Positions 18,352 to 19,605 of a stretch of 64,000 nucleotides of DNA are shown here, in pieces. The number at the start of each line of letters is the position of its first letter. Position 1 is the stretch's first letter. Origin of the DNA: an uncultured Helicobacteraceae bacterium (GTDB lineage: Bacteria > Campylobacterota > Campylobacteria > Campylobacterales > Helicobacteraceae); the NCBI GenBank assembly GCA_910578285.1, contig CAJTQL010000002.1:30951-94950 (forward strand), written 5' to 3'. Under the pieces are notes generated by a model that was not told the DNA's origin, did no database searches, and saw only the letters and a list, made by a program, of their open reading frames with translations. Made by a program: the position numbers and the translations under genes.

Positions 18352-19605
18352 ATGGCGTATCAAAACGATACTGGTTTGGACTTTTTAAGTCAATGTGACA
18401 ATGAGCTCTTGGGCGTGCTCGTGGAGATTCTGACAAAGGATAAGGGCGAGGAACGATTCACAGAAACATTAACATTGTCTAATGGATACAAAACGTACCA
18501 CCCAGACCATGTAAAATATTGGCGCGACATCGCGGAAAGCTACCAACGATTTGGCGGCAATACGTTTGTCAATATGGTGCGCGGCGGTGGCGTTTTGTAT
18601 CGGGAGATTCTGTGCGATGTGTGCGACAAGCTCAAGGTGAATTACAATAGAGATGCTTCAATAGATTTTATCGAAATTAATCTATTAAGCAAAATTTTAA
18701 CAGATTCTCTTGCGAAAATGACGACAGAACAACTTAAAGAAATAAGCAATGACTTAGGGCTTAAAAATGTTACAAGTTTTACCCCACAAGCAGTAACAAT
18801 TGCAATACAGGGCGCGATGAAGCTTTCTGGATTTATGGTTTATCAAACGGCTGTGATTATTGCAAATATGATTGCTAGGGCTGTTTTGGGGCATGGCTTA
18901 TCTCTTGCTACCAATGCTGCCCTAACAAGAGTCATAGGAGTCTTTTTGGGACCCATAGGCTGGATTATTACAGCACTTTGGACGGCTTTAGATATTGCTG
19001 GACCGGCATATCGCGTTACGATTCCTGCCACAATCCAAATTGCTTGCATGCGGCAGATAATGAATGCGCCAAAAGAGGAAGTGCCCAATGATGTTTGCAA
19101 AAAGCCCATTGGAATCTTCTATGGCAGCGATGGTGGCGACACGGAAAAAGTTGTCGAACAAATTGCAGAAGAATTGAGGGAATATGTCGATGTCAAGATT
19201 TTTAATGTCGCGCAAGCAAGCAAGAATGATTTGCGCCGATATGAGAATCTCATCTTTGCTTCACCAACCTATGGCGAGGGCGATTTGCAGAGTGATTGGG
19301 AAGATTTTCTACCCAAACTTAGCGCCAGCGATGTTGCGGGCAAAACCATTGCCTTTGTCGGGCTTGGCGACCAAGACAGCTATGGCGAAACGTTTTGCGA
19401 AGGCGTTTCACACATCTATGCTAAACTCGCCTCTAGCGCAAAAGTGATTGGGCAAACCAGCACTGATGGCTACAATTTTGAAAGCAGCAAATCTGTTGTA
19501 CGTGGCAAATTCATTGGGCTGATGATTGACGAAGTTAACCAAGACGACCAAACAGAAAAAAGAATCGCCGCATGGGTCGAAGATGTTGTCTATAAGTTTA
19601 ACTAG
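18352..19605 (+). CDS. Fusion protein: DUF3944/YaaW (UPF0174)-like N-terminal region + long-chain flavodoxin
   Basis: The N-terminal about 250 aa ([23 protein letters not shown]...[40 protein letters not shown]...) is followed by hydrophobic helices. The C-terminal about 165 aa ([15 protein letters not shown]...[18 protein letters not shown]...[17 protein letters not shown]...) is flavodoxin. Confidence 0.7.
   Translation: [417 protein letters not shown]

What the first reader, a model, noticed from the sequence alone, without database searches (positions are those of the whole stretch)
18352..19605. YaaW/DUF3944-like domain fused to a long-chain flavodoxin
A single 417-aa ORF joins two parts.
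- The N-terminal region of about 250 aa is typical of the uncharacterised UPF0174/YaaW family. It has a DUF3944-like [19 protein letters not shown], then [30 protein letters not shown], followed by two or three hydrophobic helices.
- The C-terminal part is a complete flavodoxin with the FMN-binding loops [10 protein letters not shown] and SPTYGEGD.

Flavodoxin is normally a stand-alone protein of about 165-175 aa and is the essential PFOR electron acceptor in Helicobacter. A fusion would tether it, possibly to the membrane, and would give the first functional hint (redox partner) for YaaW.

The gene sits inside a restriction island and behind a G11 tract. That is an odd context for an essential electron carrier and raises the question of whether a second, canonical fldA exists elsewhere in the genome.
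Basis: partly seen in the sequence, partly recalled or inferred. Interest (0 to 1): 0.62.

Follow-up and report, generated by a model that had tools for sequence, protein, structure and literature searches.

The report
Phage-sensor JukA fused to flavodoxin copy
A rodent-gut Helicobacter carries one gene that joins the known phage-infection sensor JukA (formerly YaaW) to a spare copy of the cell's own flavodoxin electron carrier, a pairing found only in this small clade and not described among Juk anti-phage systems.

Summary
Window 18352-19605 (+) is one 417-aa ORF: DUF3944 plus a Cbp3-like YaaW domain (aa 1-243), a short linker, and a complete long-chain flavodoxin (aa 250-417).

The interpretation needs updating.
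- YaaW is no longer uncharacterised. It is JukA, the sensor of the Juk anti-jumbo-phage system (PADLOC JukA, E=5.5e-71).
- The fused flavodoxin is not the essential one. A canonical 165-aa fldA lies on another contig.
- The fused copy belongs to one clade that is sister to the genus's own fldA. It also carries a 176-bp gene-conversion tract copied from fldA.
- The fusion is not an artefact; the exact protein is on at least 15 independent contigs.
- Sister lineages show the same pair in other forms: fused through a roughly 40-aa acidic linker, split by 10 nt, or split with an ATGA overlap.
- Both halves are under purifying selection.
- All copies sit between two restriction-modification systems in the comM-nadB island, behind a conserved G11/G12 tract that abuts the -10 box.
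- Among 1.84 billion representative proteins, only this cluster combines JukA with flavodoxin.

Verdict: a new variant of a known defence family, with flavodoxin in the effector/partner position. What the flavodoxin does there is inferred only.

The parts
18305..18315 (+). G11 homopolymer directly upstream of the -10 box; candidate phase-variable promoter element
   Evidence: Sequence. The tract is conserved as G11 or G12 in every related lineage. L122 (G12) and L123 (G11) encode the same protein. Low-coverage assemblies of the window lineage read G9 and G14, and several contigs break at the tract. The genome holds 46 G/C tracts of 10 nt or more.
18316..18321 (+). TAGAAT, the likely -10 hexamer
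   Evidence: Sequence; identical in all relatives. The simple sigma-70 scan did not report it because there is no -35 match.
18341..18346 (+). AAGGAG ribosome-binding site, 5 nt before the ATG
   Evidence: Sequence; conserved in relatives.
18352..19080 (+). JukA (YaaW/UPF0174) module, aa 1-243: DUF3944 (aa 3-36) plus Cbp3-like PF03981 core (aa 53-225), ending in a hydrophobic helical hairpin (aa 160-216)
   Evidence: Pfam. PADLOC JukA PDLC04113 E=5.5e-71 over aa 2-240. It is the only JukA match in the genome. All-helical AlphaFold model. dN/dS 0.09-0.16.
19060..19107 (+). Junction, aa 237-252 ([16 protein letters not shown]); disordered in the model. It is 10 nt shorter than the split form of the closest relatives and lacks the roughly 40-aa acidic linker of the other fusions
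   Evidence: Alignment A2 and junction strings; pLDDT below 50 for aa 241-250.
19099..19605 (+). Long-chain flavodoxin module, aa 250-417, plus stop. FMN phosphate loop GSDGGDT at 19123-19143 and SPTYGEGD at 19261-19284
   Evidence: TIGR01752 198 bits. 77% identical to the genome's own FldA. Foldseek best hit is H. pylori flavodoxin 2bmv/1fue at 54% identity. dN/dS 0.17-0.28. No clade-diagnostic substitution falls in the FMN loops.
19324..19499 (+). Gene-conversion tract copied from the housekeeping fldA
   Evidence: 174 of 176 nt identical to own fldA, against 67% identity outside the tract. The relatives' fld modules are only 80-84% identical to the window inside the tract, against 92% outside. 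The window carries the FldA state at seven consecutive diagnostic residues, aa 349-375.
19626..19682 (.). Strong hairpin between the convergent jukA-fld and AlwI-type endonuclease genes; likely a bidirectional terminator
   Evidence: RNA fold -33.7 kcal/mol, z = -5.3 against shuffles. The simple terminator scan found nothing because there is no T-run.

Best explanation
The gene is a Juk-type anti-phage module. The sensor protein JukA (formerly YaaW) is covalently joined to a lineage-specific paralogue of the host's own long-chain flavodoxin, which occupies the variable 'effector/partner' position that JukB, GTPases or phospholipases hold in other Juk systems. Shown here: both domains are intact. 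The flavodoxin clade arose once, as sister to the genus's housekeeping fldA. The pair is kept together through four different junction states and is under purifying selection. It is a single transcription unit in a conserved defence island, behind a hypermutable G tract. Inferred: by analogy with JukA in Pseudomonas, the JukA part binds an early or ejected phage protein at the infection site and so concentrates the FMN domain there. The FMN face is identical to that of FldA, so the usual donors (pyruvate and 2-oxoglutarate oxidoreductases, from established Helicobacter biochemistry) could still reduce it. The domain would then act as a local redox effector, either by diverting low-potential electrons or by generating reactive oxygen at the phage compartment. 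The G tract probably tunes or switches expression.
For: JukA membership: PADLOC JukA E=5.5e-71 with full coverage, and DUF3944 plus PF03981. JukA function and its modular effectors and fusions are described in bioRxiv 10.1101/2022.09.17.508391 and in reviews PMC13282480 and PMC13434031. Other JukA proteins carry GTPase, YjcZ-like or unknown domains fused at the same point, around aa 243-250. Context: jukA-fld always lies between an N6_N4 methylase/DUF6996 system and an AlwI-type R-M system, between comM and nadB. Functional linkage: the same gene pair is fused with an acidic linker, split by 10 nt, split with an ATGA overlap, or fused directly. Selection: dN/dS is 0.09-0.16 for jukA and 0.17-0.28 for fld. 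The FMN loops are unchanged; the 36 diagnostic substitutions lie outside them, about half in helices alpha1-alpha5 and the rest in other loops. Origin: JukA-linked flavodoxins form one clade (support 100/98) that is sister to the genus's FldA clade (100/99). A stand-alone fldA is present. The gene is accessory: no JukA match in two near-complete genomes of the same genus, and a patchy spread in the family. Between G000 and G004 the locus is far more diverged (jukA dS 0.84) than fldA (dS 0.15), as expected for a defence gene.
Against: No flavodoxin effector is described in the Juk preprint or its supplement, so any effector chemistry is speculation. JukA alone suffices for immunity in some species, so the flavodoxin may be dispensable. 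In the L118/L119 lineage the fld partner is frameshifted. No nucleus-forming jumbo phage of Helicobacter is known to me (from memory). Concerted evolution by gene conversion could make the paralogues look more recently duplicated than they are.
Confidence: 0.55

Rival explanations
1. Integrated decoy. The flavodoxin domain is not an effector but a bait that mimics the essential FldA. A phage protein that hijacks host flavodoxin (for example to feed radical-SAM or ribonucleotide-reductase activases) would bind the bait and trigger JukA, which is itself the effector.
For: The FMN/partner-docking face is identical to that of FldA. Gene conversion from fldA re-copied 176 bp into the fused gene, and possibly a longer tract in P0124. 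That keeps the copy looking like the original. JukA alone gives immunity in Vibrio, Escherichia and Janthinobacterium.
Against: Conversion may be a neutral by-product of homology. P0124 comes from a 1.3-kb metagenome contig and could be a chimeric assembly. No phage factor that targets flavodoxin is known in this host. The helices away from the FMN site have diverged, so the mimicry is partial.
Confidence: 0.15
2. Non-defence redox role. A Cbp3-like chaperone domain and an electron carrier work together in assembly or electron supply of a respiratory or membrane complex, possibly tethered to the membrane by the hydrophobic hairpin.
For: PF03981 (cytochrome bc1 chaperone family) matches above its cut-off. 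One segment exceeds the Kyte-Doolittle transmembrane threshold. The GC content of the gene (42-45%) matches the genome (44.7%), not the AT-rich island (34%).
Against: The family has a demonstrated anti-phage role, and JukA is cytoplasmic and diffuse before infection. The gene is accessory within the genus, phase-tract controlled, embedded between R-M systems in every lineage, and diverges much faster than fldA. The partner gene is frameshifted in one lineage.
Confidence: 0.12
3. Accidental fusion without a joint function. A duplicated fldA landed next to jukA, and a 10-bp indel happened to join the frames. The flavodoxin is a passenger on its way to decay.
For: The window's fusion differs from the split form by one small indel. 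The fld is frameshifted in L118/L119. Its dN/dS is about tenfold higher than that of housekeeping fldA (0.2 against 0.017).
Against: Adjacency, orientation and tight coupling survive across lineages separated by dS 0.3-1.0. dN/dS stays near 0.2 and the FMN loops are intact. Most lineages (7 of the 8 protein clusters that are fused) carry a different, longer in-frame linker, so fusion is the common state and not a one-off.
Confidence: 0.1
4. Only a free flavodoxin is made from an internal start, or the junction is an assembly error.
For: An in-frame GTG (V244) lies where the split relatives use TTG, just after a GAGGA motif.
Against: The GAGG-to-GTG spacing is about 2 nt, too short for efficient initiation (inference). 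M237 has no ribosome-binding site. The junction is identical in independent assemblies. Seven other protein clusters are in-frame fusions.
Confidence: 0.03

Closest known systems
Juk (jumbo phage killer) system: JukA sensor (formerly YaaW) plus JukB or other effectors, Pseudomonas aeruginosa PA14 (Li et al., bioRxiv 10.1101/2022.09.17.508391; Cell 2025;188:2127 as cited in PMC13282480)
   Same: The N-terminal 243 aa are a full-length JukA (DUF3944 plus Cbp3-like core; PADLOC E=5.5e-71). It has a defence-island context with R-M neighbours and a second module placed directly downstream or fused, as in the described JukA-GTPase and JukA-patatin fusions.
   Different: The partner is an FMN flavodoxin derived from the host's housekeeping fldA, which is not among the described effectors. 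No JukB was detected, although the control for that search was silent. No phage target is known. Activity is untested.
Helicobacter pylori flavodoxin FldA (PDB 1fue, 2bmv), the electron acceptor of pyruvate:flavodoxin oxidoreductase
   Same: The C-terminal 168 aa are a long-chain flavodoxin: 54% identical to H. pylori FldA, 77% identical to the genome's own FldA, with all FMN loops kept.
   Different: It is a second, accessory copy fused to JukA. It has a 3-residue insertion after helix 1, diverged distal helices and a conserved N-terminal extension (N/S)DVCKKP. It evolves about tenfold faster (dN/dS) than the housekeeping copy.
JukA fused to Ras-like/IIGP-type GTPases or YjcZ-like domains (seen here in P0242, P0252, P0293, P0256; also earlier scan notes e1-4942812 and e1-2692618)
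   Same: Same fusion point, right after the JukA C-terminal helix (around aa 243-250). The added domain is a compact alpha/beta domain.
   Different: Those domains are nucleotide-binding switches or unknowns found in several phyla. This one is a redox cofactor protein found in a single 50%-identity cluster.
Cbp3 (mitochondrial ubiquinol-cytochrome c reductase chaperone, PF03981)
   Same: The Pfam family match covers aa 53-225. The Juk preprint reports HHpred 98.6% between JukA and Cbp3.
   Different: There is no evidence here for a role in cytochrome b assembly. The gene is accessory and linked to a defence island.

Membership tests
JukA / YaaW / UPF0174 (Juk sensor) | N-terminal DUF3944 followed by a Cbp3-like PF03981 core, about 240 aa | tested here: met
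   Pfam DUF3944 at aa 3-36 (28.4 bits, cut-off 24) and PF03981 at aa 53-225 (31.3 bits, cut-off 21.5); NCBIfam PRK10236 over aa 2-241.
JukA / YaaW / UPF0174 (Juk sensor) | Full-length match to curated defence-system JukA profiles | tested here: met
   PADLOC PDLC04113 E=5.5e-71 (profile positions 4-241 of 245) and PDLC04111 E=1.5e-68.
Juk system (two-component JukA+JukB) | A JukB pore-forming effector encoded next to jukA or elsewhere in the genome | tested here: inconclusive
   There is no PDLC04114 (JukB) match in the 99.96%-complete genome, but the model matched none of the control genomes either. The gene downstream of jukA here is a flavodoxin, not jukB.
Juk system | Defence-island neighbourhood (R-M, WYL and similar) | tested here: met
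   N6_N4 methylase remnant upstream; AlwI-family endonuclease plus D12 methylase downstream. The same arrangement is seen in relatives.
Juk system | Protection against (jumbo) phage; relocalisation of JukA to the infection site | not testable with these tools
   Needs phage assays and microscopy.
Long-chain flavodoxin (TIGR01752 flav_long / FldA) | Profile score above the curated cut-off over the full length, including the long-chain insertion | tested here: met
   198.1 bits against a cut-off of 146.75, profile positions 2-166 of 167; NF006739 FldA subfamily 207.5 bits against 175.
Long-chain flavodoxin (TIGR01752 flav_long / FldA) | FMN phosphate loop plus the 50s and 90s loops conserved | tested here: met
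   [17 protein letters not shown] and [12 protein letters not shown] are identical to the genome's own FldA. No clade-diagnostic change falls in these loops.
Long-chain flavodoxin (TIGR01752 flav_long / FldA) | Binds FMN and shuttles low-potential electrons | not testable with these tools
   Needs a purified protein.
Cbp3-type cytochrome b chaperone | Role in bc1-complex assembly | not tested
   Only the Pfam family match. The context argues against a housekeeping role.

The most novel reading that the evidence does not exclude
A housekeeping electron carrier has been duplicated and wired into an innate-immune sensor. Either it is a redox effector delivered to the phage entry site, or it is an integrated decoy of the essential FldA that is kept look-alike by recurrent gene conversion. 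Both would be modes of bacterial anti-phage defence not described so far, and the decoy reading would parallel the integrated decoys of plant NLR receptors.
Probability: 0.25. Interest if true: 0.8.

Novelty: new variant of a known kind. Interest (0 to 1): 0.5.

Why it matters
Reviews describe JukA as one of the most widespread bacterial immune proteins, present in about a fifth of proteobacterial and cyanobacterial genomes. Only one effector, the JukB pore, is understood mechanistically.

This is a natural case in which JukA is repeatedly kept together with an FMN flavodoxin, whether fused, split or re-fused. It offers a tractable handle on what JukA can do without JukB. It also raises the question of whether redox cofactor proteins can serve in immunity, as effector or as bait.

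It corrects the annotation problem as well. The fused gene should not be read as the organism's fldA, and 'YaaW/DUF3944' should be read as JukA.

The locus is also a compact example of three evolutionary processes: duplication of a core gene into a defence island, gene conversion between the copies, and fusion/fission polymorphism, all behind a hypermutable promoter tract.

Tried and rejected
I could not test the transcript, the internal start, or heterogeneity of the G tract at read level.
- The Cell 2025 Juk paper (PMC12147104) is not held. I relied on the preprint and two reviews.
- A joint MAFFT alignment of fusions, JukA-only and flavodoxin-only proteins (A3) misaligned the JukA proteins and was discarded. 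A4 was used for the structure, so the flavodoxin half had a shallow alignment and low pLDDT in its long loop.
- A PDB sequence search with the JukA half found nothing at E<=1. The Foldseek hits beyond flavodoxins were engineered GPCR-flavodoxin crystallisation constructs, which are meaningless here.
- Two apparent further fusions were checked and rejected. L028 (Campylobacter; the match seemed to reach aa 325) is a plain 243-aa JukA. P0299 (match to aa 360) has a non-flavodoxin C-terminus.
- The flanks of 53 jukA loci from other taxa contain no flavodoxin.
- The simple promoter and terminator scans did not report the TAGAAT box or the hairpin. I call these from the sequence, their conservation and the RNA fold instead.
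- Which junction state is ancestral could not be resolved. Deriving the short fusion from the split form, or the reverse, needs the same number of events.

Full report
**1. Observation**

Window 18352-19605 (+) is one uninterrupted 417-aa ORF with an AAGGAG ribosome-binding site 5 nt upstream.
- Pfam finds DUF3944 (aa 3-36), PF03981 Ubiq_cyt_C_chap, which is the YaaW core (aa 53-225), and Flavodoxin_1 (aa 255-408).
- NCBIfam places aa 253-416 in long-chain flavodoxin TIGR01752 at 198 bits against a cut-off of 146.75. It places aa 2-241 in the YaaW model PRK10236.
- The exact protein is encoded on at least 15 contigs from independent samples and assemblers. The four loci I fetched have identical junction DNA. 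An assembly artefact is excluded.

**2. What the N-terminal half is**

A literature search for YaaW/DUF3944 led to Li et al. (bioRxiv 10.1101/2022.09.17.508391).
- YaaW is JukA, the sensor of the 'jumbo phage killer' system. It is diffuse in the cytoplasm and moves to the phage entry pole on infection.
- Two reviews cite the published version (Cell 2025;188:2127). They add that JukA binds phiKZ gp241 on the early phage infection vesicle and recruits the pore-forming JukB. They also state that JukA occurs in about 21% of genomes and JukB in about 1%, so JukA pairs with other effectors or acts alone.
- The PADLOC JukA profiles match aa 2-240 at E=5.5e-71. This is the only JukA in the genome.
- No JukB was detected, but that model also matched none of the control genomes.
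- The preprint lists JukA fusions to a Ras-like GTPase, to patatin and to a coiled-coil domain. Flavodoxin appears neither in its text nor in its held supplements.

**3. What the C-terminal half is**

The genome (1.96 Mb, 99.96% complete) has a second, stand-alone fldA of 165 aa at C1:274899-275390, next to a 2-isopropylmalate-synthase-like gene. The fused copy is therefore not the essential carrier.
- The fused domain is 77% identical to the stand-alone copy, with identical FMN loops. Its best structural match is H. pylori flavodoxin.
- In a maximum-likelihood tree of 61 flavodoxins, all JukA-linked copies (fused or split) form one clade (support 100/98). That clade is sister to the stand-alone FldA clade of the same genus (100/99). 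The FldAs of P0130 and of a third species of the genus (P0131 = G002) branch outside both.
- The simplest reading is a single duplication of fldA within the genus. The caveat is that gene conversion can make paralogues look younger than they are.

**4. Gene conversion**

Window 19324-19499 is 174/176 identical to the genome's own fldA, while the rest of the domain is 67% identical.
- The fld modules of relatives are 92% identical to the window outside the tract but only 80-84% inside it. The fused gene was therefore the recipient.
- The window protein shows the FldA state at seven consecutive clade-diagnostic residues, aa 349-375.
- The first roughly 70 bp of the tract are highly conserved in all copies. 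The unambiguous part is about 107 bp (19393-19499).
- A second protein, P0124, has an entirely fldA-like C-terminal half. It comes from a 1.3-kb metagenome contig and may be a chimeric assembly.

**5. Fusion/fission polymorphism**

The clade shows four junction states.
- A. Fusion through a 40-45-aa Asp/Glu-rich linker: P0002-P0008, including the species representative G004.
- B. Two genes 10 nt apart: jukA ends in NAPKG* and fld starts at a TTG. Seen in L004-L006 and in L021 (= G003). This JukA is 94% identical to the window's.
- C. Two genes with an ATGA overlap: L118/L119. Here the fld is also frameshifted after VVGQT.
- D. The window's direct fusion, 10 nt shorter than B.

All four keep the motif (N/S)[12 protein letters not shown]. 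Whether D derives from B or B from D cannot be decided.

The persistence of the pair through these rearrangements is classical 'Rosetta stone' evidence that the two polypeptides work together. Nei-Gojobori dN/dS is 0.09-0.16 for jukA and 0.17-0.28 for fld, against 0.017 for housekeeping fldA.

The 36 clade-diagnostic substitutions lie outside the FMN loops (P-loop, 50s loop, 90s loop). About half are in helices alpha1-alpha5 and the rest are in other loops. The donor-docking face is thus preserved.

**6. Context and regulation**

In every lineage the gene lies between comM and nadB. Upstream is an N6_N4 methylase/DUF6996-6997 system, reduced to a 109-aa methylase remnant in the window. Downstream is a convergent AlwI-type endonuclease with two D12 methylases.
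- The preprint names R-M genes among the commonest jukA neighbours.
- jukA-fld has genome-like GC (42-45% against 44.7%), while the island overall is 34%.
- A G11 tract abuts a TAGAAT box 30 nt before the start codon.
- The tract is G11 or G12 in all lineages, despite synonymous divergence up to about 1. It differs (G12 and G11) between two contigs that encode the same protein. It reads G9 and G14 in two low-coverage assemblies of the window lineage, and it breaks several assemblies.
- The genome has 46 G/C runs of 10 nt or more but only ten of 8-9 nt, the signature of contingency loci.
- A strong hairpin (-33.7 kcal/mol, z = -5.3) follows the stop codon.
- The gene is thus a monocistronic unit with a probably phase-variable promoter.

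**7. Spread**

- Among 5.8 billion clustered proteins, only eight clusters, all 73-100% identical to the query, carry both domains.
- In an exhaustive HMMER search of 1.84 billion representatives, only one cluster matched with both halves.
- The other long hits I scanned by Pfam are JukA joined to GTPase, YjcZ-like or unknown domains at the same fusion point.
- None of the other 51 JukA loci from other species has a flavodoxin within 8 kb. Most Campylobacterota jukA genes stand alone.
- Within the genus the module is in G000, G003 and G004 (and probably the fragmentary G001). It was not found in the near-complete G002 and G005.
- Between G000 and G004, fldA differs by one residue (dS 0.15), but jukA has dS 0.84. 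That is defence-gene-like diversification, though it is calibrated on a single housekeeping gene.

**8. Structure and membrane question**

AlphaFold (48-sequence alignment; mean pLDDT 71) gives an all-helical JukA domain, a disordered junction (aa 241-250) and a flavodoxin fold.
- One segment (around aa 198-206) exceeds the Kyte-Doolittle threshold, and a neighbouring helix is nearly as hydrophobic.
- JukA is reported as soluble before infection and acts at a phage-derived membrane vesicle. The hairpin may therefore be a conditional membrane-binding element and not a permanent anchor. This is inference.

**9. Mechanism**

Shown: a JukA-family sensor and an intact flavodoxin paralogue are co-inherited, co-expressed by design (fused or translationally coupled), selectively maintained, and embedded in a defence island.

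Inferred, roughly 55%: JukA brings the FMN domain to the infection site, where it acts as a redox effector.

Alternatives:
- an integrated decoy of FldA (15%);
- a non-defence redox or assembly role (12%);
- a functionless passenger (10%);
- an artefact or internal start only (3%).

**10. Verdict**

The result is a new, narrowly distributed variant of a known defence family, of moderate interest.

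Noticed in passing
window 19324-19499 and G000:C1:274899-275390 (L002 1492-1989): Recent gene conversion from the housekeeping fldA into the fused copy (174/176 nt identical). 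P0124 from another sample may record a second, longer conversion, or it may be a chimeric assembly.
   Followed up: yes
window 18305-18315; L121, L122, L123, L114, L116: The G tract before the -10 box is conserved as G11/G12 across lineages with dS up to about 1, and it varies between contigs that encode the same protein. The genome has 46 G/C runs of 10 nt or more against ten of 8-9 nt, so there are many candidate contingency loci.
   Followed up: partly
G000:C1:274398 and 274579 (L002 about 991 and 1172): Two poly-C tracts (C10, C11) lie in the intergenic region upstream of the housekeeping fldA. This is an unexpected place for hypermutable runs.
   Followed up: no
L118 752-1207 and L119: In one sister lineage the flavodoxin partner overlaps jukA by ATGA and is frameshifted after VVGQT, while jukA stays intact. 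This is possible decay of the partner, or an error shared by two runs of one study.
   Followed up: partly
L007 1-55 / L010 (G004:C16 end): The contig ends in about 50 C where the G tract should be. This is an assembly or sequencing artefact at the homopolymer, present in a public MAG.
   Followed up: no
NCBIfam NF007593 (PRK10236.1): This 237-position model matches the JukA/YaaW domain over aa 2-241 but is labelled 'acidic protein MsyB'. From memory MsyB is a 124-aa protein, so the label looks misassigned and would propagate wrong names.
   Followed up: no
P0002-P0008 linkers (e.g. L007 about 790-930): The long fusions carry a 40-45-aa linker made almost entirely of Asp/Glu with a few Tyr/Trp. 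Its length and sequence vary between lineages. Its function is unknown (flexible tether, or a mimic of nucleic acid).
   Followed up: no
G005 (same genus, 99% complete): The fusion protein as query matched neither JukA nor any flavodoxin in this genome. A Helicobacter without fldA would be surprising, so this is probably a miss of the first-look filter.
   Followed up: no
window 17884-18213: A 109-aa ORF is the C-terminal remnant of the N6_N4 methylase that is full-length (259-268 aa) at the same place in relatives (L004, L121, L122).
   Followed up: partly
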